A stretch of 64,000 nt of DNA from Octopus vulgaris (GCA_951406725.2 OX597828.1:73904001-73968000); one strand, 5' to 3'. Shown: positions 7,499 through 56,829, counted from the stretch's first letter. A program made the numbers and translations. The notes: generated by a model not told the origin, from the letters alone.

Positions 7499-8178
7499 TA
7501 TTTTCGTCCTAAAAAACTTTGTATGGATTGAATGGTTACCTCTATGGAAATATATACACGCACATTATACATACATGTGTGTATAGATGAATATATAAAT
7601 ACATTTAAATATCTATATACACTTTTGGACGATCTTTCTGTTTCTTAGAGATAACTTTAGATCTTATTTTCGTCCTAAAAAACTTTGTATGGAGTGAATG
7701 GTTACCTCTATGGAAATATATACACACACGTTATACATACATGTGTGCATAGATGAATATATAAATACATTTATATATCTATATACACTTTTGGGCGATC
7801 TTTGTGCTACTTAGAGATAACTTTAGATCTTATTTTCGTCCTAAAAAACTTTGTGCGGAGTGAATGGTTACGTCTATAGAAATATATACATACACATTAT
7901 ACATACATCTGTGTATAGATGAATATATAAATACATTTAAATATCTATATACACTTTTGGGCGATCTTTCTGCTACTTGTATATACTTTAGATCTTATAT
8001 TCGTCCTAAAAAACTTTGCATGGAGTGAAAGGTTACCTCTATGGAAATATATACACACACATTATACATACAGCTGTGTATAGATGAATATATAAATACA
8101 TTTAAATATCTATATACACTTTTAGGCGATCTTTTTGCTACTTGGATATAGGTCTTATATTCGTCCTAAAAAACTTTC
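7499..8178. repeat. About 166-bp tandem repeat, about 4 diverged copies
   Basis: cgtcctaaaaaacttt at 7505, 7671, 7837, 8002 and 8162. Confidence 0.93.
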
Positions 8179-28812: not shown

Positions 28813-29294
28813 CATATATATACAGTTATGTCACACTATTTGTATCTAAAAGTTATGTAATTAACAGTGATGAATGAAGATTGTATAAAACGTTAGAAGA
28901 AAAAAGAAACAGAGTAAGAGTGGAACAAAACGAAGGAGAGGGGTAATGGAGATTGGAGGAGGGAGAGGGAGGAGGAGGAAACTTACGTCTCTACTCACAC
29001 CAGTCAGAAACCACCAAATCGACAGTTCGTATCCTTTTAGCGACAGGGCATTATTGCCACTACCTTCCAATTCCCAAACATTTCTGTTATTGTAAATATT
29101 TTGCGCGAGAGAATTACAGAGGAATATTTTTTATCGCAGAATTTACCCCTTCCTCTAAATTGCTGGCCTTGTGCCAAAATATGAAATCAATAATAATAAA
29201 AATTATGTTCATGCATTTGTATATGTGTGTGTGTGTGTTGTTATATTTCGGATTGGTCATATTTTTCTTGCCAACTGAACACACGCACTATATA

Positions 29295-29500
29295 TTTGTT
29301 CTTCCCTTGTTTATTCTTGTTTTTATTGGAAACCTTTTGGTACACATTTGTGACCGCTTCATTGACACTTCCATCCACGTGCTTCCTCCTCTTCTGTTTA
29401 GTCCATTCCGTCTCTCTATGACGTGTATCCAGAAGAGGTCACAGATGTGCGACGAAAGATTTCCAGACGATGGAAATAAGATAAAATAAGAACAACGCTA
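29295..29500. mobile_element. Fold-back element with opposed hammerhead-like motifs (same family as 33605-33770)
   Basis: Plus strand cAGAAGA-ggtcacagatgtgcgac-GAAA-gatttc at 29430-29463; degenerate mirror copy at 29328-29366; shared core ccacgtgctt. Confidence 0.65.
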
Positions 29501-29510
29501 AACGAATATA

Positions 29511-29584
<74 letters not shown>

Positions 29585-29820
29585 CAGTGCGTGTGTTTCT
29601 CTGGCGAGAAAAAATAATGACCATCCCGAAATATAACACCTGCTTCAACACGTGATTTCACTTCACCGATTTTGCAAAACAAATCCATAAACATGTGTGT
29701 GTGTGTGTGCGTGCGTGCGTGCGTGTATATATATATATATATATATGTGGGTGGGTGTGTGTGTGTATATACGTATACATATATGTATGTACATATAGAT
29801 ACATATAGATTGGTAGATAT

Positions 29821-29865
<45 letters not shown>

Positions 29866-29868
29866 CAA

Positions 29869-29936
<68 letters not shown>

Positions 29937-30002
29937 GTAGGTAGGTATGTAGGTAGGTAGGTAGGTAGGTAGGTAGATAGGTAGGTAGGTAGGTAGGTAA
30001 GT

Positions 30003-30047
<45 letters not shown>

Positions 30048-30375
30048 CAGAGAGATTGGATGTGTGTTTGTGTATAACTGTTCGTATAAATCGATATAAA
30101 GAGAAGAGCAGAGAGAGAAAACTACCTATGTATGCATATGCACCTACGTCAGTGCGTGTGGGGGTGGATAGGTGGGTGAGTCTCCCGGATCTACGAAAGA
30201 AATACCCGGATTGAAAGAGTCCATTGTGGAAATAATGATAATATTCACCCCAAAAGAAGAGTGTATTACACCCACGCGCGCGCACACACACACACACTCA
30301 CATACATAAATGAATGTATATGAATATATATGTATATTATAAATATATATATTTATATATATAGATAGATAGATA

Positions 30376-30467
<92 letters not shown>

Positions 30468-30542
30468 ATATGTATATATATATATATATATATGTAAATA
30501 TATGTATATGTATATATATGTATAATATGTAAATTATGAATA

Positions 30543-30599
<57 letters not shown>

Positions 30600-30617
30600 C
30601 ATATATATACATACATA

Positions 30618-30778
30618 CAGGAGTGGCTGTGTGGTATGTACCTTGCTAACCAACCACATTGTTCCGGCTTCAGTCCCACTGCGTGGCATCTTGGGCAAGT
30701 ATCTTTTGCTATAGCCTCGGGCCGACCAAAGCCTCGTGAGTGGATTTGGTAGACGGAAACTAAAAGAAGCCTGTCGTA

Positions 30779-30832
<54 letters not shown>

Positions 30833-31045
30833 TGTGTATATATTTGTGTGTCTGTGTTTGTCCCTCTAGCATTGCTTGACAACCGATGCTGGTGTGTTTA
30901 CGTCCCCGCCACCAAGCGGTTCGGCAAAAGAGACCGATAGAATAAGTACTGAGCTTACAAAGAATAAGTACCGGGGTCGATTTGCTCGACTAAAGGCGGT
31001 GCTCCAGTATGTCTGCAGTCAAATGACTGAAACAAGTAAGAGAGT
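30618..31045 (+). mobile_element. SINE family A, near full length
   Basis: Matches 26785-27252. Confidence 0.9.
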
Positions 31046-31100
31046 ATATATATGTATAAATATATATATATATATATATCTATAAATAAATAAATGCATA

Positions 31101-31163
<63 letters not shown>

Positions 31164-31233
31164 ACATATATATGTATATATATATGTATATAAATGTATA
31201 TGTATTATATATAATATATATATATATAGAAAT

Positions 31234-31303
<70 letters not shown>

Positions 31304-31346
31304 ACACCTATATCCACACACACACAAACACACGCATATATGTATG

Positions 31347-31397
<51 letters not shown>

Positions 31398-31896
31398 GTG
31401 CATACATACATACATACATATTAATATATGCATTTGTATCTCATTTGATAAACATATACGAGGTGTGCGCATGCGTTCGTGTGAACGATAACGCCAACTA
31501 AAATGTTGTGATTAATAGTGATATCTAGTAATGGTTAAAAATATGGACGGGGCCTGGATACGTTGATTGGACAGCCGTACTGGCAGTCCTTTCATTTGTT
31601 CAACAATTGAAACGAAAGCGCTGAGTGCACTGGGTGCTCTGGAGTTTCATGGTTGCATTAGTTCTACGACACCTATAATCTGATCAACGGGTTGACGGAG
31701 AGAGAGCATGGAATTAGAGATGGGAGCAATATTGATAATGAGGTTAGGGTCCGCGTTTTTTTTTTTATCATCTTACGGATGGTCATTTACGGATTTAGCA
31801 CTAAGAAGAGATAATGTTTTGATCTACACACACACACATATACACACGCCTCCAAACACACAAACATAAACATAATTGTATATACGTATATGAATA

Positions 31897-31940
<44 letters not shown>

Positions 31941-31996
31941 TATATTCATATACGTATATATATACACATATATATATGCATATTTATATATGCGCA

Positions 31997-32037
<41 letters not shown>

Positions 32038-32130
32038 CTGTGTGTATATGTATATATATGTGAATATATATATGTATATATATATATATATATTTCTGTG
32101 TATGTATATGTATATACATATATGTATGTA

Positions 32131-32184
<54 letters not shown>

Positions 32185-32743
32185 TGTGTATATATATATA
32201 TAGAGAGAGAGAGAGAGGGGGAGAGAGATACGAAAAGACAGAGAGATATGTATGTGTGTGATATCATACCGAGGGGTAAATGACGGCTGATGTATCCGGT
32301 ATTGATAATCTCTGAAGACTAATAACTAGTTGCGTATGTTTCAGGCCAAAAAATAAGCGTTTTATGTGTGTGCGTGCGTATGCGTGTATGTATGTATGTA
32401 TGTATGTATGTATGTATGTATGTATGTATGTATGTATGTATGCATGTATGTATGTTTATACTAAGTAATGAGGAATTGTGTTGAAAAACACCCGACCAAC
32501 TCGTGCATGATAAATAAAGAGAAAATACGATAAAAAACCATGACGATGTTGATAGATTTATGTGTGTGTGTGTGTGTGTGCGTACATATATATATATATA
32601 TATGCAATTACATATATACATATATTTAGATATACATATGCATGTATATGTATTTATATATATATATATGCACACACATATACATATAAATATAGATATA
32701 TATACGCGTACATATATATATATATGTATATATGTATATATGC

Positions 32744-32806
<63 letters not shown>

Positions 32807-33604
32807 AGTGTGTAGATACATATATGTATATATCTGTGTTTATGTATGCATACATACATAAATACGTACTACATACATATATACATAAGTGCGTACGTAC
32901 TTACCTACGTACATACATACATACATACATACATACATACATACATACATAACATACCTACATACATGCATACATGCATACATACATACATACATACATA
33001 CATACATACATACATACATACATACATACATACAAATATACATACATACTACATACCTATTTGTCTCTCTATCTGTAATCTATAATACACTCAGTTATTC
33101 TTTGGGCAACAGAATCATTATAACGAACACTAAATCGAATTTCGTTCCCAAATAATACAATTAATGACACCACCACCACCAACAACAACATCAACAACAC
33201 TAGCATCACTAAGGCTGTTTATGAAAACGTTGATAGCATCTTCTTGTCTTTTACCTCAATGTGATGCGTTGCCATGCAGGGTATTGAGTGCATTCAGTGA
33301 GTGGATATTACATTGTCTATTTAGAGGGTGACTGTTTTGATCCGATGAACATGTATATGCTTGTTCGTGCGTGTGTGTGTCTGTGTGTGTGCGTGTGCGT
33401 GCGGATGTGTGCGTGTGCTGTGGAGTGTGGATACAAAAGGATTGCATTGATGATTACGTAGGTGTAACATCTAGACATTTATATTTATATTCTTTTATTC
33501 TTTTCTACTGGTTTCTGTCATTTGACAGCGGCCATGCTGTCTTCGCCAAATAAACACACGCACTGGATAATCGTTATTCACTTCAGCTTTTATTATCATT
33601 CATA

Positions 33605-33770
33605 ATTTAGCGTCATTTGTCGGAAATCTTTCGTCGCACATCCTGTAACCTCTTCAGTGACTCTTCATCCCACGTGCTTGCCCCTGTTCTGATTAGTCTA
33701 ATCTGTCTTTCTGTCTTTCGCTTAACATATCAGAGGATGTGCGACGAAATATTTCGGACAAAGAACCTTA
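33605..33770. mobile_element. Fold-back element with a minus-strand hammerhead motif and a partial plus-strand mirror
   Basis: Minus strand gtca-CTGAAGA-ggttacaggatgtgcgac-GAAA-gatTTC-cgac (33619-33661); plus strand aggatgtgcgacGAAAtatttc at 33734-33755. Confidence 0.7.
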
Positions 33771-33776
33771 AAATCA

Positions 33777-33843
<67 letters not shown>

Positions 33844-34204
33844 TGCAGTAGTAGTACTAATGCTGAAGCGAAAATGCTTGGCAAAATAAAATGATCATCC
33901 CCAAATATAACAAAGATTGAACACAGAATTTCACATTAGGAATTCAGCAAAACAAATACATAAATGTGAAATATACGTCCTTTACATATGAAGATGTGTG
34001 TGTGTGTGTGTGCATCCGGTCTTGAAGAAAGAAATGTCCGATGTTCTTCTGCACCAAGTCTGACAGTCATTAACCCTAATGTTTTATCCTGACAATTCTT
34101 TGTTTTGCAACATTGAAGAGTTACATCATCACTTTTCGAAATGCAGTTCATGGTGTCTGGTTATATTGTGAGTTTTCTCTTGTTAATCAAGTTTTGTGAA
34201 CCTA

Positions 34205-36325
34205 TGGATGGATGAAAAATTTGTGTTGTTTATGAGTATGAGTTCCATCATGGAACCAATGTATCCCAGACAACTCGAAACATCAACGAGGTGTTTGGTG
34301 ATGAAGTGGTAGATGAGGGCACTGTACGTCGATGGTTTGAGAAGTTCCGGTCTGGTGACTTTACCCTTGAAAATCAGCACCGTGGTAAGCCTGATAAGCT
34401 GGAAACTGTAGTGGAAACGGATGCATGTCAAACTATGCGTTGAGTTACAGCAAGGTTTGTTGTTTTGAATCTAACTGTATTGGACCATCTGAAACAAATC
34501 GGCAAAGTAAAGAAGCTGGCCAAATGGGTACCACACGAACTGAATGAATATCAAATGACACGTCATCTTGAAACTTGCTGTTCTTTGCTGTCGTAGCATA
34601 AAGGGAACGATTTTTGGATCGTATTGTTACGTGTGATGAAACATGGATTCTCGTCAACAATAGTAAGCATTCTGCACGGTGGTTGGTGAGAGACGAAGTG
34701 CAAGTACAACCCAAAAGAATATTCACCAAAAGAAAAGCTAATGGTGTCTGTTTGGTGGTCCAGCGCTTGTGGCATCCATTACAGCTTCATGAGAGCTGGT
34801 AAATCAGTTACAGCAGACGTATACGAGGGGCGTTCAATAAGTAATGCCCCTGACCCACTTCTCATAGCAGTAGAGCAACGACACTTGGCACAGTTATTAG
34901 TCTTTTTCTACATAGGAACTACCCAGAGTTATGCATTTCTCCCATCGTTTGATACAGCTCTGGAGACCGTTTTTGTAGAAGACCCCAGCTTGGTCCTCCA
35001 ACCACGACGTGACTTCAGAAATCAAGGCTGCATCATCTGGGAAACGCTTTCCTTTCAAAATCAACTTCATGGCTGGGAAGAGGTGAAAATCAGAGGGTGC
35101 AAGGCGAGGAGTTCATAGCTGCATGCCTGTGCTTCTGATCTGGCGACACGCGAGTTGTGGACCGGAGCGTTGTCCTGCAGGAGGAGGATGCCTTTGCTGA
35201 TCTTGCCGCGCCTCTTGATTTTGATAGCTTCTCTTAATTTCCTCAAAAGGGAAGCATAATAGGCTCTTGTAATTGTGGTACCCTTTGCCAGGAAATCTGT
35301 CATCACTACTCCGTCCTGGTCCCAGAAGACTGTGAGCATGACCTTGCCAGCGGAGGGCTGCACCCTTGCCTTCTTTGGAGGAGGTGAGTCACGGTGCTTT
35401 CACTGCATTGACTGGGCTTTGGTCTCTGGATCATAGTGATGGACCCAGGTTTTATCCTGTGTGATCAGTCTTTTGAAACATTTTGACTCATCGTCTTGGC
35501 ACATCTCCAAATTCATCCTCGAGCACTCAACGCGTTCTTGCTTCTGGAAAGGTGTGAGCAACCTGGAAATCCATCTGGCAGACACCTTTTGCATATGCAA
35601 ATGGTCATGAATGATAGTTTCCACAGACCCGGTACTAATCTTGACCTTATGGGCTATTTGGCGAATAGTTATGCGTTGACCTTCCAAAATGGCAGCCTCA
35701 ACTTGACGGACAGACGTCTCATCAACGGCAGAAGGGGGAGACAAGATCTGGGAGCTGTTTCCACAGAGTTCCGACCATGTTTGAATTCACAATGCCAGCG
35801 TTTTACAAGGTCATATGATGGGGCATCATCACCATAAGTTACTTTCATTTCATCAAAAGTTTCCCGTGGTGTGCGTCCTTTCAAATACAAAAACCAGATC
35901 ACTGCTCGACACTCAACAGGCTCCATTTCACACTTGACTCAGTTCAAACACCTGTAAATCAGAAACCACAATTAGTTCAGAGCTGTAATTCGCCACTTAA
36001 TCTATAGAGGTATAAATAAGTGTACATGCAAAATTTCAGCTAGATCAAATAAATGCAAGTGGGTCAGGGGCATTACTTATTGAACGTCCCTCGTACATCA
36101 ACCATTTGGATGAAATGATGAGTGGACTTGCAATGAAACAACCGAGATTGGTCAATAGAGACAGGCCAGTTCTCTTGCAAGACAATGCTTGACCACATGT
36201 TGCACAAAGAACGCTACTCAAGTTACAGGAACTGAACTTGGAAGTACTCTGTCATCCACCATATTCACCGAGACCTTCCACCTGCTAACTATCACGTTTT
36301 ACAGGCATTAGACAACCTTTTGCGA
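34205..36325 (+). mobile_element. Older mariner (Mos1/SETMAR-like transposase) interrupted by a nested mariner
   Basis: YEFHHGTN..NINEVFGD, KWVPHEL, DRIVTCDETW, GKSVTADVY then INHLDEM..LLQDNA*PH..HPPYSP across the insertion. Confidence 0.88.
34824..36093 (-). mobile_element. Full-length DD34D mariner, copy 1 (defective), TA target duplication
   Basis: TIRs cgaggggcgttcaataagtaatgcccctgacccactt and mirror; flanking TA at 34822-23 and 36094-95; transposase 34897-35926 with frameshift, stop and small deletion. Confidence 0.96.
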
Positions 36326-36622
36326 TGACCTCCCTTGCAAATGCTATATACGGACACAGACTGTGTGTCGTTAACCAGGTGGAAATGATTTTTCCTGGGG
36401 TTAAAACAACAGTAACATCGTCCTTTACAGGACTGCCACATTCTGTTGGCATAGAAACATTATCAACCGGTGGTACTGTTACTGTATTTCTCTCGTTCAG
36501 AGATTTAAAACGTTGTTTTTCTCCATATATATATATATATATATATATATACCGGAGTAAACACATAAATGTGAAACAAGGTGGAAAAAAGAGTACTCAA
36601 ATACCAATGGTAGAGTAATATG

Positions 36623-36780
36623 CTTTATTTAAAGCAGCAGAAAATTCAACAAAACCTGTTACTCTGAGTTTCCCATTGCCGTTCATCGGACAGTTTTTGC
36701 TAGCAAAAACTGTCCGATGAACGGCAATGGGAAACTCAGAGTAACAGGTTTTGTTGAATTTTCTGCTGCTTTAAATAAAG
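36623..36780. repeat. Perfect 158-bp palindrome with hammerhead-like motif on both strands (Penelope pLTR-like)
   Basis: Arms are exact reverse complements around gct|agc (36701/36702); ctgt-CCGATGA-acg-GCAA-tgg-GAAA-ctcagag-TA-acag. Confidence 0.9.
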
Positions 36781-36855
36781 TATATATATATATAGATACA
36801 TATATATATATATATGCATAGATATATATGCATAGATATATATGCATACATATAT

Positions 36856-41984: not shown

Positions 41985-42350
41985 ATAGGACTGTTAGAAA
42001 TAGCAGCCAACTCACCGCAAGCTACACATTCCACTGTCTGCAGAAAGCGAAAGAAATCCTGGGTAATCTCGTCCTAGACGTTAGCTTAAAGAGATGCAAT
42101 GTCGATGGTTATGCCTGGGGCTCCGTCAGTTACGAAGACAAGTGTCCCGGTCGATTCGATCAATGGAACAGCCTGCCCGTGAATTTAGCATGTAAGTGGC
42201 TGAGTACCCCTCAGACACGAGTACACTTAAGGTAATTCTCATGGAGATTCAATTGACCCAAAGTTTGATAAGGCTGGCCCTTTGAAATACAAGTGTTACT
42301 CATATTCGCCAGCTGAATGGAGAGAAGCAACGTGAAATAAAGTGTCTTGC
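41985..42350 (-). mobile_element. SINE-like repeat related to the family D body, truncated at the duplication junction
   Basis: agcaacgtgaaataaagtgtcttgct is the reverse complement of about 25445-25470; tRNA head missing. Confidence 0.6.
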
Positions 42351-42444
42351 TCTTTCCATTTCAGAATTACAACTATTAGTGGTTTGGAGTTTAGCTGCTC
42401 TTTCTAGTGAGTCGGATGTCCTATTATGGCCGTCCCTTATATGT

Positions 42445-42487
<43 letters not shown>

Positions 42488-42560
42488 GTATAGATATGTA
42501 TGTGTGAATGAAAGTTATGTATGTATATGTTTATGTACCCATAGACAGACAGATACATAA

Positions 42561-42603
<43 letters not shown>

Positions 42604-42767
42604 CATATATATATATATGTATGTATAAACCTACTTGGACATGGATGTGCGGCGTTCAGTCATATGATAATATATATTATATATATATGCATATATACAT
42701 ACATATATGTACATACGTACATATACATGCATATATATATATATGTATGTATGTATGTATGTGCATG

Positions 42768-42817
<50 letters not shown>

Positions 42818-44793
42818 GGTACAGGACGTCACAAAAAGTAAACAACATGAAATACGAAGACTTGAGTGTGCAAGCAACGAGAGAAACAGGGAAAACAAAA
42901 CAAGTAACATATAGAACGACCCTTCATCAGTTGTCGAGTGTCCATCTACTCCTCATTTCAAGCATTTAACGACAATATGAGGTTTCGAAAGGCAGTTGTC
43001 TTCGCGAACCAAAATAAAATTTGGGATTTGCGGAGGGTCAAAGTTGGTAACAAAAACAGGACAGTGGAGACATACAACGAACCTAATGAAAACAAACATG
43101 GAGGACCTTTAGACCAGACTAGATGATGTAGCGAACGCTGGAGAAATATTGTCTTTGACAAGAGAAAAGATAGAAGAGGAGACAAATAAGAATGCGTTTG
43201 GTCTGTACGAACAGACTGAAGGAAAAGAAAGATGATTACGCGAGGAAAAGGAAAATGGACGATGGTCACGTTTGAGCTACGAGAGAGAGAGAGAGAGTAA
43301 AGGAGAGAGAAGGAGAGACAGATAGAAAACGGTGAAGGGGAGAAAAAAGAATTAGAGAAAGGATGAGGGAGAAAAAACGAAAGGGGGAAAAGGGAAGATT
43401 TATATATATATATAGTACCCCCCCCCAAAAAAAAAACCAAGAACAAACTAAAAAATGTAACAACGCGATTACGTGGTGCATGTAAAGCATTAGCAGACGC
43501 TCAGGGAAGGAAAGAAGGGTGTTGATTGCAATGCGTGATTGAATTGTAATGCTTATCTGTTTGTATTTTAGATGCTTGTATTCTTAGCATCTTGTGTTCT
43601 GTTATTTTCGAAGTGACATGTAATATCTTTGAGTTGGATCCAGCAATTTATGCATTGTTCTGTCTGTCTGTTTGTCTGGTAGTTTAGAGTAATTATAGTT
43701 TTGAAATGTGCTGCAAAGTGGTTGTAAAAATACTGTCTGCATTTTTGGGACGAGAACGGCTTATGTGTTGATAACATTTTAGTATATACGACTATATAGT
43801 TGCCTTTACAACACGTGAATGTATCTTGGAACAGAAATAGCTTTTGTATTACAAAGGCAGCGAGCTGGGACGACAGTTAACACGCCTGACAAAGTGATGT
43901 CCATTTTTAGTTTCTGAATTCAAAATCTCCTGAGGTCAATTTGCCTTTCATCGATCGGGATCGATAAAAAGGGCCAATCACGTCCTGGAGTCGATGTAAT
44001 CGACTTCTCCCCCCCACCCCCGAAACTTCTGAACCTGTGTCAAAATTTGAAATTATTATTATGAGGTGTAATGCAACGAGTTGGTAGTACTGTTAGCACA
44101 CCGGACAAAATGATCAGCGGCATTTTGTCCGTCTTTACGTTCTGAGCTCAAATTTCAACGTGGTTGACTTTGTTTTTCTTCTTTTTGGCATCGATAGAAT
44201 AAGTACCAGTCGAGTATAGGGGTCGATGTAATCGACTTCATCTTCCAAGAAAAGAAACTGCCGGTCCCTTGCCAAAAGTTGAAACCATCGTTCCGGCAAG
44301 ATGTTTGTTGTTGTTATTGTCGTTTTTGTTCTTATTTAAACCCATCAGGCTTTATGGAGCAAAGTTATGTTCAAAGGCATTCCATGTACGGGACATTATG
44401 AAGGTACGTGAATCAGTGGCTTAGAAATTCGGCAAATGGTTGTAAAGTCGTGAGTTAATTTTGAAATTAAATCGGCAGTTTATATTTACTGCTGAGTAAA
44501 CCGCGCGAGCGTGGTGGAATTTGAAAATTTATAGCATATAGACTCGAGGCATGTTTATCATCGCCTCTTGGATATATGTTAGGCCTTGGCTTTTCTGCTG
44601 ACGAGGCAACGCCAGTGGTAAATAAATTAATTAAATTATTTTATTTACAAAAGATTGCCGAAACTATGCATAGTCCAGAAAGGAGAGGGTTTATATTTCT
44701 CTTTCCATTTCAGAATTACAACTATTAGTGGTTTGGAGTTTGGCTGCTCTTTCTAGTGAGTCGGATGTCCTATTATGGCCGTCCCTTATATGT

Positions 44794-44844
<51 letters not shown>

Positions 44845-44917
44845 GTATAGATATGTATGTGTGAATGAAAGTTATGTATGTATATGTTTATGTACCCATA
44901 GACAGACAGATACATAA

Positions 44918-44958
<41 letters not shown>

Positions 44959-45122
44959 CATATATATATATATGTATGTATAAACCTACTTGGACATGGA
45001 TGTGCGGCGTTCAGTCATATGATAATATATATTATATATATATGCATATATACATACATATATGTACATACGTACATATACATGCATATATATATATATG
45101 TATGTATGTATGTATGTGCATG

Positions 45123-45180
<58 letters not shown>

Positions 45181-47160
45181 GGTACAGGACGTCACAAAAA
45201 GTAAACAACATGAAATACGAAGACTTGAGTGTGCAAGCAACGAGAGAAACAGGGAAAACAAAACAAGTAACATATAGAACGACCCTTCATCAGTTGTCGA
45301 GTGTCCATCTACTCCTCATTTCAAGCATTTAACGACAATATGAGGTTTCGAAAGGCAGTTGTCTTCGCGAACCAAAATAAAATTTGGGATTTGCGGAGGG
45401 TCAAAGTTGGTAACAAAAACAGGACAGTGGAGACATACAACGAACCTAATGAAAACAAACATGGAGGACCTTTAGACCAGACTAGATGATGTAGCGAACG
45501 CTGGAGAAATATTGTCTTTGACAAGAGAAAAGATAGAAGAGGAGACAAATAAGAATGCGTTTGGTCTGTACGAACAGACTGAAGGAAAAGAAAGATGATT
45601 ACGCGAGGAAAAGGAAAATGGACGATGGTCACGTTTGAGCTACGAGAGAGAGAGAGAGAGTAAAGGAGAGAGAAGGAGAGACAGATAGAAAACGGTGAAG
45701 GGGAGAAAAAAGAATTAGAGAAAGGATGAGGGAGAAAAAACGAAAGGGGGAAAAGGGAAGATTTATATATATATATAGTACCCCCCCCCCAAAAAAAAAA
45801 CCAAGAACAAACTAAAAAATGTAACAACGCGATTACGTGGTGCATGTAAAGCATTAGCAGACGCTCAGGGAAGGAAAGAAGGGTGTTGATTGCAATGCGT
45901 GATTGAATTGTAATGCTTATCTGTTTGTATTTTAGATGCTTGTATTCTTAGCATCTTGTGTTCTGTTATTTTCGAAGTGACATGTAATATCTTTGAGTTG
46001 GATCCAGCAATTTATGCATTGTTCTGTCTGTCTGTTTGTCTGGTAGTTTAGAGTAATTATAGTTTTGAAATGTGCTGCAAAGTGGTTGTAAAAATACTGT
46101 CTGCATTTTTGGGACGAGAACGGCTTATGTGTTGATAACATTTTAGTATATACGACTATATAGTTGCCTTTACAACACGTGAATGTATCTTGGAACAGAA
46201 ATAGCTTTTGTATTACAAAGGCAGCGAGCTGGGACGACAGTTAACACGCCTGACAAAGTGATGTCCATTTTTAGTTTCTGAATTCAAAATCTCCTGAGGT
46301 CAATTTGCCTTTCATCGATCGGGATCGATAAAAAGGGCCAATCACGTCCTGGAGTCGATGTAATCGACTTCTCCCCCACCCCGAAACTTCTGAACCTGTG
46401 TCAAAATTTGAAATTATTATTATGAGGTGTAATGCAACGAGTTGGTAGTACTGTTAGCACACCGGACAAAATGATCAGCGGCATTTTGTCCGTCTTTACG
46501 TTCTGAGCTCAAATTTCAACGTGGTTGACTTTGTTTTTCTTCTTTTTGGCATCGATAGAATAAGTACCAGTCGAGTATAGGGGTCGATGTAATCGACTTC
46601 ATCTTCCAAGAAAAGAAACTGCCGGTCCCTTGCCAAAAGTTGAAACCATCGTTCCGGCAAGATGTTTGTTGTTGTTATTGTCGTTTTTGTTCTTATTTAA
46701 ACCCATCAGGCTTTATGGAGCAAAGTTATGTTCAAAGGCATTCCATGTACGGGACATTATGAAGGTACGTGAATCAGTGGCTTAGAAATTCGGCAAATGG
46801 TTGTAAAGTCGTGAGTTAATTTTGAAATTAAATCGGCAGTTTATATTTACTGCTGAGTAAACCGCGCGAGCGTGGTGGAATTTGAAAATTTATAGCATAT
46901 AGACTCGAGGCATGTTTATCATCGCCTCTTGGATATATGTTAGGCCTTGGCTTTTCTGCTGACGAGGCAACGCCAGTGGTAAATAAATTAATTAAATTAT
47001 TTTATTTACAAAAGATTGCCGAAACTATGCATAGTCCAGAAAGGAGAGGGTTTATATTTCTCTTTCCATTTCAGAATTACAACTATTAGTGGTTTGGAGT
47101 TTGGCTGCTCTTTCTAGTGAGTCGGATGTCCTATTATGGCCGTCCCTTATATGTTTGAAT
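42351..47160. repeat. Near-identical tandem duplication, unit about 2.35 kb (A-B-A-B-A, A about 100 bp)
   Basis: ctttccatttcagaattacaac at 42352, 44701 and 47062; duplicated ORFs 42938/45301 and 43568/45932; each unit carries two SINE B copies. Confidence 0.96.
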
Positions 47161-55458: not shown

Positions 55459-55546
55459 CATCATCATCATTATCATCATCATCATCATCGTCATGGTCAT
55501 CATCATCATCATCATATGAACCTCGAAAGGTTAAAAAGCATAGTTA

Positions 55547-56827
55547 CGAGGGGCGTTCAATAAGTAATGACCCTGACCCACTTCTCATAGCAGTAGAGCA
55601 ACGATACTTGGCACAGTTATTAGTCTTTTTCTACATAGTAACCACTCAGAGTTACGCATTTCTCCCATCGTTTGATCCAGCTCTGGAGACCGTTTTTGTA
55701 GAAGTCCCCAGCTTGGTCCTCCAACCACGACGTGACTTTAGAAATCAAGGCTGCATCATCTGGGAAATGCTTTCCTTTCAAAAACAACTTCATGGCTAGG
55801 AAGAGGTGAAAATCAGAGGGTGCAGGGTCAGGAGAGTAGGGGGTGGGGGAGAAGTTCATAGCCGTACGCCTGTGCTTCTGATCTGGCGACACGCGAGTTG
55901 TGGACCGGAGCGTTGTCCTGCAGGAGGAGGATGCCTTCGTTGATCTTGCCCCGCCTCTTGATTTTGATAGCTTCTCTTAATTTCCTCAAAAGTGAAGCAT
56001 AATAGGCTCCTGCAATTGTGGCACCCTTTGCCAGGAAATCTGTCATCACTACTCCGTCCTGGTCCCAGAAGACTGTGAGCATGACCTTGCCAGCGGAGGG
56101 CTGCACCCTTGCCTTCTTTGGAGGAGGTGAGTCACGGTGTGTCCACTGCATTGACTGGGCTTTGGTCTCTGGATCATAGTGATGGACCCAGGTTTCATCC
56201 TGTGTAATCAGTCTTTTGAAAAATTTTGACTCATCGTCTTGGCACATCTCCAAATTCATCCTCGAGCAATCGACACGTTTTTGCTTCTGGAAAGATGTGA
56301 GCAACCTGGGAATCCATCTGGCAGACACCTTTTGCATATGCAAATGGTCATGAATGATAGTTTCCACAGACCCGGTACTAATCTTGACCTCATGGGCTAT
56401 TTGGCGAATAGTTATGCGTCGATCTTCCAAAATGGCAGCCTCAACATGACGGACAGATGCCTCATCAATGGCAGAAGGGGCGACCAGATCTGGGAGCAGT
56501 TTCCACAGAGTTCCGACCATGCTTGAATTCACGATGCCAGCGTTTTACAAGGTCATATGATGGGGCATCATCACCATAAGTTACTTTCATTTCATCAAAA
56601 GTTTCCCGTGGTGTGCGTTCTTTCAAATACAAAAACGGGATCACTGCTCGACACTCAACAGGCTCCATTTCACACTTGACTCAGTTCAAACACCTGTAAA
56701 TCAGAAACCACAATTAGTTCAGAGCTGTAATTTGCCACTTAATCTATAAATAATTGTACATGCAAAATTTCAGCTAAATCAAATAACTGCAAGTAGGTCA
56801 GGAGCATTACTTATTGAACGCCCCTCG
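55547..56827 (-). mobile_element. Full-length DD34D mariner, copy 2, TA target duplication
   Basis: Same TIRs as copy 1; TA at 55545-46 and 56828-29. Confidence 0.96.
55620..56668 (-). pseudogene. Mariner transposase with two frameshifts
   Basis: MEPVECRAVI..., VSARWIPRLL, ITQDETWVHHYDPE, LLQDNAPVH, YSPDPAPSDFHLF; three overlapping ORFs. Confidence 0.9.
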
Positions 56828-56829
56828 TA

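What the first reader, a model, noticed from the sequence alone, without database searches (positions are those of the whole stretch)
29295..33770. Second family of short fold-back elements with opposed hammerheads around a shared core (two copies)
Seen: 29295-29500 and 33605-33770 share the core ccacgtgctt..ttctg.ttagtc flanked by inverted arms. The best motif is on the minus strand at 33619-33661 (CTGAAGA-stem II-GAAA-gatTTC); the other copy has its best motif on the plus strand at 29430-29463. The sequence is unrelated to the 36.6-kb palindrome but the architecture is the same. Inference: a non-autonomous, roughly 200-bp retrozyme-like unit with a ribozyme on each polarity, an arrangement reminiscent of viroid-like RNAs, probably mobilised by Penelope-like elements.
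Basis: partly seen in the sequence, partly recalled or inferred. Interest (0 to 1): 0.72.

Follow-up and report, generated by a model that had tools for sequence, protein, structure and literature searches.

The report
Head-to-head Penelope retrotransposon stumps
These two fold-backs are worn-down, back-to-back end pieces of a Penelope-type jumping gene whose end repeat carries one hammerhead-like RNA motif; the mirror layout is likely the element's usual way of landing, none of the four arms is predicted to still cut RNA, and the arrangement is ordinary.

Summary
The two related fold-backs are real (72% over 145 nt, E 3e-14), but wider than reported (29238-29692; 33542-33963), and they do not carry a hammerhead on each strand. 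Both arms are the same terminal repeat (pLTR) of a Penelope-like retrotransposon, placed head to head. Longer genomic copies run into a decayed RT + GIY-YIG gene. A young sister family with intact 1312-aa ORFs has the same pLTR, and the arm ends encode that ORF's first codons. In 24 head-to-head pairs the arm starts vary (-91 to +163 from the motif's C3). The optional tail is on one end in 18 and on both in 0. Only 7 pairs span the motif twice. Of the four window arms one keeps an intact core and none passes a strict hammerhead test. Opposed minimal hammerheads 100-700 bp apart and inverted pLTRs with a one-sided tail are in print (PMC4209133, PMC8557442, PMC3846280), and this scan noted the same layout on other DNA of this genome. 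One side lead: the youngest, very abundant sister family has C at core position 9.

The parts
29238..29430 (-). Copy 1, left arm: 5'-truncated pLTR (model -68 to +143, C3 = 0), ending at the tail-less end
29329..29363 (-). Copy 1, left arm: decayed hammerhead motif (C3, A9 and G12 changed, helix II broken)
29375..29403 (-).
29432..29692 (+). Copy 1, right arm: pLTR from model +2 through the ~52-nt tail, with an (AT)n expansion at about 29506-29585
29430..29463 (+). Copy 1, right arm: truncated hammerhead motif; it starts inside the first box and has no helix I 5' strand
29617..29692 (+). Decayed first codons of the PLE ORF, carried in the pLTR end and tail (MTIPKYN...)
   Evidence: translation; tblastn E 6e-4 to the N-terminus of the intact sister ORF
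33542..33712 (-). Copy 2, left arm: pLTR model -55 to +114; its outer end abuts a SINE-like repeat at 33469-33539
33619..33661 (-). Copy 2, left arm: the only motif with an intact core (extra G between 9 and 10.1, 5 of 6 helix II pairs, A-C mismatch at 2.1-1.1)
33713..33729 (.). Copy 2: 17-nt junction not matching the family model
33730..33963 (+). Copy 2, right arm: pLTR from model +9 (inside helix II, no CUGANGA box) through the tail, with a (TAG)n expansion at about 33777-33858; ORF start remnant at 33891

Best explanation
Each fold-back is likely one old, 5'-truncated insertion of a Penelope-like retrotransposon (C-terminal GIY-YIG, Neptune/Nematis-type linker) that left two partial copies of its terminal repeat head to head. 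Shown: both arms are the same pLTR; the pLTR follows an RT + GIY-YIG ORF in long copies; it holds one minimal type I hammerhead motif and ends in the ORF's first codons; arms stop at two discrete 3' points (about +145 and +197) and start at variable 5' points. Inferred from published PLE work: the element's protein nicks AT-rich or microsatellite DNA and reverse-transcribes its RNA from either of two internal start sites, and two truncated cDNAs are joined at their truncated ends. A motif appears on both strands only when both cDNAs happen to run past it. The copies have since decayed (about 80% identity between arms) and are predicted to be catalytically dead; in a read-through transcript the motif would be locked in the long hairpin.
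For: Link to an ORF: L028 and L004 run 5' into decayed linker and GIY-YIG coding sequence (tblastn to the intact ORF E 9e-49 and 8e-8). 14 of 29 other ORF-anchored loci carry this pLTR downstream on the same strand. The decayed ORF piece is 70% identical to P0001, which finds intact ORFs in the genome (56 matches scored, 91-100% identical). L128 is pLTR-ORF(1312 aa)-pLTR. That ORF matches Pfam RVT_1 and GIY-YIG at E 3e-4 each. Its model (pLDDT 85.8) has telomerase TERT as the two best Foldseek hits (E 2e-8, 1e-7). Geometry: 24 of 58 motif-anchored loci are head-to-head pairs, short-arm starts -66 to +163, long-arm starts -91 to -3; tail on one end in 18, on both in 0, on neither in 6; both arms span the motif in 7. 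Young family: among the first 100 of 3092 exact motifs, neighbours within 6 kb are 22 head-to-head pairs 94-4512 nt apart, 2 tandem, 0 tail-to-tail. Motif: extra nucleotide between 9 and 10.1, G10.1-C11.1, 6-bp helix II, short helix I and near-palindromic helix III, as described for PLE min-HHRs (PMC4209133). Helix II pair probabilities are 0.00 in the full fold-backs for the two arms scored.
Against: Both Pfam hits are below the curated cut-offs, and Pfam found nothing relevant in six decayed fragments or in the whole 1312-aa ORF. The protein evidence comes from a sister family and from other loci, not from the two window copies. Rfam finds no hammerhead in copy 2, but it also misses the clean sister motif, so this says little. 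Helix I is weak in this subfamily: 64% of cells paired over the alignment, and 4 of 29 loci pass the strict scan. Covariation is thin: pairs with a change on both sides 3, against 3.1 in shuffles. Long-arm starts are somewhat dense between -40 and -56 (12 of 24), which may mark a real 5' end of a short RNA; part of this is bias from my query. The joining mechanism was not tested here.
Confidence: 0.93

Rival explanations
1. The fold-back is a dedicated non-autonomous retrozyme or viroid-like unit with a ribozyme on each polarity, which replicates as such with the help of Penelope enzymes.
For: Both window copies share orientation and roughly similar junctions (-68/+2 and -55/+9). 7 of 24 pairs do span the motif on both arms. 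Animal retrozymes are argued to derive from pLTRs (bioRxiv 10.64898/2026.07.22.740005, abstract, introduction and first methods seen).
Against: No two of the 24 pairs share both breakpoints. Neither window copy has two complete motifs. The ends are asymmetric. No head-to-tail array of short units appears in the 58 loci. The spacing is continuous up to 4.5 kb in the young family. The fold-back pairs away helix II.
Confidence: 0.02
2. The arms were copied from a short pLTR-only RNA (a SINE-like non-autonomous derivative starting about 50 nt upstream of the motif) rather than from full-length PLE RNA. The head-to-head shape is still a by-product.
For: 12 of 24 long arms start between -40 and -56, and several single-arm copies start there too.
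Against: In the 27 pattern-anchored loci, which were not selected for their 5' end, starts spread from 0 to beyond -100 with no sharp edge. 19 of 58 loci extend past the model's 5' end, some into the ORF.
Confidence: 0.04
3. A MITE or fold-back DNA transposon with terminal inverted repeats.
For: The outer ends are inverted repeats: 29239-29295 vs 29580-29638, 81%.
Against: One end carries a ~52-nt tail that the other lacks (18 of 24, never both). Flanking duplications are not fixed: 9-10 nt in 2 of 8 complete pairs, a microsatellite match in copy 1, 6 nt or less in the other 5, and up to 7 nt in 56 mismatched controls. The repeat is the 3' end of an RT element.
Confidence: 0.01

Closest known systems
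EN+ Penelope-like elements of the Neptune/Nematis type and their inverted 5' pLTR insertions (PMC8557442, passages; PMC3846280, passages)
   Same: RT plus C-terminal GIY-YIG with a CX2-5CxxC linker; direct and inverted pLTRs; pLTR holds the first codons of the ORF and the tail adds more; tail on one end only; head-to-head junctions; microsatellite-rich targets; occasional 9-10-nt duplications.
   Different: The tail is about 52-56 nt, against the 30-40 nt quoted. The two window copies keep only pLTR sequence. Clade placement within Neptune or Nematis was not tested.
Minimal type I hammerheads of metazoan PLEs (PMC4209133, parts 1-2 of 4 read)
   Same: Unpaired base between 9 and 10.1, G10.1-C11.1, long helix II, short helix I, vestigial palindromic helix III. 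The paper reports dual motifs about 100-700 bp apart on opposite strands.
   Different: Helix I of this subfamily often has a mismatch or bulge next to the core. The window copies are decayed.
Poseidon PAc of Anolis (PMC11167929, passages)
   Same: Two discrete 3' ends, which that paper traces to two internal RT start sites.
   Different: In PAc the ORF starts at helix II; here the ATG lies about 120 nt downstream of C3. The linker differs.
Animal non-LTR retrozymes (PMC7761336, passages; bioRxiv 10.64898/2026.07.22.740005, first fifth)
   Same: Short, non-coding, type I hammerhead, linked to PLEs.
   Different: Retrozymes are head-to-tail tandem repeats with a motif in every unit and give circular RNA. 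These pieces are head-to-head, variably truncated, and have no complete motif pair.

Membership tests
EN+ Penelope-like element | RT closest to telomerase RT | tested here: met
   Intact sister ORF (P0001 is 70% identical to the decayed family's RT piece): RVT_1 E 3e-4, below cut-off; profile hits to RTs in the PDB; two best Foldseek hits are TERT. No tree was built.
EN+ Penelope-like element | C-terminal GIY-YIG endonuclease with CCHH motif | tested here: met
   Pfam GIY-YIG E 3e-4, 21.4 bits vs cut-off 22.6; Atlas neighbours with GIY-YIG in 40% and 19% of members; two Cys inside the motif and two His downstream seen in the sequence.
EN+ Penelope-like element | pLTRs in direct tandem and inverted arrangement around the ORF | tested here: met
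   20 of 20 young loci have the pLTR downstream (one only as a 70% match with a gap); upstream, within the 1.5-kb flank, it is direct in 10 and inverted in 6. Old family: 14 of 29 downstream; inverted upstream in L070 and L073.
EN+ Penelope-like element | pLTR contains the ORF start; optional tail on one end | tested here: met
   Arm ends translate to the ORF's N-terminus. Tail on one end in 18 of 24 pairs, on both in 0.
Neptune/Nematis clades | CX2-5CxxC linker between RT and EN | tested here: met
   C-x4-C-x2-C before the GIY-YIG motif in L128 and in decayed L078.
Neptune/Nematis clades | Phylogenetic placement of the RT in one clade | not tested
   No named reference PLE sequences were fetched.
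PLE minimal type I hammerhead (family level) | CUGANGA, unpaired base, G10.1-C11.1 helix II, GAAA, UH, helix I | tested here: met
   Strict scan passes 4 of 29 loci, 10 of 27 loci and 22 of 30 sister loci; the last two sets were chosen by a pattern that fixes the core and helix II. Helix I and III partners change together between subfamilies.
PLE minimal type I hammerhead (the four window arms) | Intact core and pairing at 1.1-2.1, 10.1-11.1, 15.1-16.1 (criteria in PMC3088659, passage) | tested here: not met
   0 motifs on either strand of either copy.
Hammerhead ribozyme | Self-cleavage | not testable with these tools
   Needs an in vitro assay.
Non-LTR retrozyme | Head-to-tail tandem units, each with a complete motif | tested here: not met
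   No abutting head-to-tail array in 58 loci.
Non-LTR retrozyme / viroid-like RNA | Circular unit-length RNA | not testable with these tools
   Only assembled contigs were offered.
Viroid-like ambisense RNA | A complete ribozyme on each polarity of one fixed unit | tested here: not met
   0 of 2 window copies; 7 of 24 pairs merely span the motif twice, each with different breakpoints.
MITE / DNA transposon | Symmetric TIRs and a fixed-length TSD | tested here: not met
   Asymmetric ends and variable or absent duplications.

The most novel reading that the evidence does not exclude
The lineage to which these stumps belong records the loss of ribozyme function during continued success: an older sister subfamily has a canonical minimal hammerhead (657 exact motifs), while the youngest one, with intact ORFs and 3092 exact motifs, has C in place of the conserved A9. 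If that variant does not cut, this is a natural experiment showing that a Penelope element can spread in vivo without hammerhead cleavage.
Probability: 0.3. Interest if true: 0.45.

Novelty: new member of a known kind. Interest (0 to 1): 0.12.

Why it matters
As found, it matters little: it is transposon debris of a published shape, and a caution that fold-backs with opposed hammerheads in animal genomes are usually Penelope insertion footprints. The useful by-product is a young, intact Penelope-like family in a likely octopus genome, with a core-variant hammerhead, which could be used to test what the ribozyme does for these elements.

Tried and rejected
Rfam: in the whole window the 150 listed of 616 matches were microRNA models on microsatellites; copy 2 gave 4 chance matches; the clean sister motif gave 2 chance matches. 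No hammerhead model hit, so Rfam is uninformative here. The repeat finder on the whole window was swamped by microsatellites. One search queried the wrong flank of L028 and fetched an unrelated repeat (L032-L061); these loci were left out of all counts. Pfam on six decayed ORF pieces found nothing relevant; on eight full-length homologues it gave one weak RVT_1. phmmer against the PDB with single sequences found nothing relevant. A single-sequence fold gave pLDDT 34 and was not used. RNA: no RNA holder was listed for the young pLTR; laying contigs of four runs on copy 2 gave only short scattered pieces, which says nothing on expression, ends or circles. Truncation at the ribozyme cut: no arm of the 24 pairs starts at +35; the nearest are +30 and +39. 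Local duplication of one copy into the other was rejected: no flank homology, different junctions and different subfamily marks in loop II and after the cleavage triplet. Lunse et al. 2017 on PLE hammerhead variants is not held, so I could not check whether an A9C variant is described there; a full-text search for A9C listed 8 of 217 papers, none with the term. A search for octopus + Penelope + hammerhead listed 4 papers, none on this family by title or abstract start. Repbase and Dfam could not be searched. No supplements were read; those of PMC4209133 and PMC8557442 may list related motifs or families.

Full report
Observation. The window is G000 C15:73904001-73968000 in a 2.8-Gb, microsatellite-rich genome. 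A protein named Octopus vulgaris by its source matches a locus of this genome at 100%, so the animal is likely that octopus. The two copies are homologous (72.4% over 145 nt, E 3e-14) and each is an inverted repeat, but the homology continues outward to 29238-29692 and 33542-33963. No match to the 36.6-kb palindrome other than microsatellite was found.

The family. Copy 2 as query gave 751 first-look candidates, of which 40 were scored. A 34-nt degenerate pattern had 54 exact matches against 0 for the reversed control. Aligned in the sense of the motif, the copies share about 110 nt upstream, the motif, and about 160 nt downstream. The 'shared core' is the part just upstream of the motif, so each fold-back is two partial copies of one repeat joined at their truncated 5' ends.

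Link to a coding element. L028 and L004 continue 5' into decayed coding sequence with linker and GIY-YIG motifs. Searching with that piece gave 30 loci. Leaving out the query's own locus, 14 of 29 carry the repeat downstream on the same strand, and L070 and L073 carry it inverted upstream. An RT-bearing piece of L079 is 70% identical to P0001. P0001 finds a young family: 56 matches scored, 91-100% identical, many without stops. L128 is repeat-ORF-repeat with a 1312-aa open frame. The window arms align to this repeat, and their ends translate to the ORF's N-terminus. The ORF matches RVT_1 and GIY-YIG at E 3e-4, both below the curated cut-offs. It has a C-x4-C-x2-C linker. A model built on a 37-sequence alignment (pLDDT 85.8) has telomerase TERT structures as its two best hits, with group II intron RT third. 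These are the defining traits of EN+ Penelope-like elements of the Neptune/Nematis type (PMC8557442, passages).

Geometry. I examined 58 motif-anchored loci: 29, 27 (30 less two duplicates and one not counted by the id range) and the two window copies. 24 are head-to-head pairs with at most 400 nt between the arms. With C3 as 0, short arms start from -66 to +163 and long arms from -91 to -3. Both arms span the motif in 7 of 24. 3' ends fall mostly near +145 or +197; the longer end is on one arm in 18 pairs, on both in none, on neither in 6. The young family ends at +160 or +216 in the same way. Among the first 100 of its 3092 exact motifs, neighbours within 6 kb form 22 head-to-head pairs spaced 94-4512 nt, 2 tandem pairs and no tail-to-tail pair. 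Flanking duplications are 9-10 nt in 2 of 8 complete pairs, a microsatellite match in copy 1, and at chance level in the rest. The literature describes this shape: an inverted 5'-truncated copy next to the pLTR, a tail on one end only, and a pLTR that holds the first codons (PMC8557442 and PMC3846280, passages). The tail has been traced to two internal RT start sites (PMC11167929, passages).

The hammerhead. At family level the motif fits the PLE minimal type I hammerhead: CUGANGA, one unpaired G, a 6-bp helix II opened by G10.1-C11.1, GAAA, a two-pair helix III with a near-palindromic loop, UH, and a short helix I. PMC4209133 (parts 1-2 of 4) lists these traits, reports low activity and only as dimers, and notes dual motifs about 100-700 bp apart on opposite strands. 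A sister subfamily (657 exact matches, control 0) has a clean version. On 51 rows (63 candidates less 12 near-identical sister rows), helices II and III are 94-95% paired and helix I 64%. Cells with a change on both sides number 19 against 9.4 in shuffles, but pairs with such a change number 3 against 3.1. This reflects one or two subfamily-level events, and helix II is partly fixed by my pattern, so I count it as weak support. In the window, a strict scan after the criteria of PMC3088659 (passage) finds no motif in any of the four arms, against 4 of 29, 10 of 27 and 22 of 30 in the three locus sets. Copy 2's plus arm lacks the first box. Copy 1's plus arm begins at G5. Copy 1's minus arm has three core changes. 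Copy 2's minus arm keeps the core but mispairs next to it. In the folded full elements the helix II pairs of the two scored arms have probability 0.00; in isolation they reach 0.07 and 0.26, against 0.9 or more for the young motif.

Mechanism. Shown: identity of the arms, link to the ORF, variable starts, two 3' ends, decay. Inferred from published PLE work: nicking at AT-rich or microsatellite DNA, reverse transcription from one of two internal sites, and joining of two truncated cDNAs head to head. How the two are joined was not tested here. A motif on both strands is an accident of where the two cDNAs stop. The two window copies are separate insertions: different junctions, different subfamily marks, no shared flanks.

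Verdict. This is an ordinary footprint of a Penelope-like element. My searches found no paper on this octopus family, but repeat databases were not available. Earlier notes of this scan reached the same reading for other loci of this genome; these are unchecked and are not counted as support. The one lead worth keeping lies outside the finding: 34 of 34 motifs in the 20 young loci have C at position 9 and U at 17.

Noticed in passing
L123-L142 (for example L128:184-4119; G000 C17:6331579-6336951): Young, probably recently active Penelope-like family with intact ORFs up to about 1312 aa at 98-100% identity. All 34 motifs seen have C at core position 9 and U at 17; 3092 exact motif matches in the genome.
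   Followed up: partly
L128: about aa 250-510 of the ORF: Long Asn/Ser-rich low-complexity stretch before the RT, in frame; similar N-rich inserts are reported in Adineta Penelope ORFs (PMC3846280, passage).
   Followed up: no
L143-L172: Sister subfamily with a canonical CUGAUGA core and a clean helix I (657 exact matches). L164 has the young-type flanks and U17 but still A9, which suggests the order of changes. L147 and L149 stop right after the cleavage triplet in a (CT)n run.
   Followed up: partly
window 36618-36785: Near-perfect palindrome from a different repeat with a hammerhead-like motif whose first box has C at position 4; it fails my strict scan for that reason.
   Followed up: no
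window 29238-33963: Two independent insertions of related subfamilies lie only 4.3 kb apart, in the same orientation; this is closer than the family's apparent density suggests and may reflect a microsatellite-rich target region.
   Followed up: partly
window 34822-36095 and 55545-56829: Two 93%-identical copies of a 1.27-kb repeat with 39-nt terminal inverted repeats, likely a DNA transposon.
   Followed up: no
window 42347-47158; 52-1422; 7499-8177: Near-identical tandem duplications: about 2.36-kb unit at 99%, 615-bp unit at 99%, and 166-bp unit at 88-94%.
   Followed up: no
window 33469-33539: Fragment of an abundant SINE-like repeat abuts and probably removed the outer end of copy 2's left arm.
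   Followed up: partly
L010, L094, L112: Three of 24 short arms start at +25, the G12 position; small sample, possibly microhomology.
   Followed up: no
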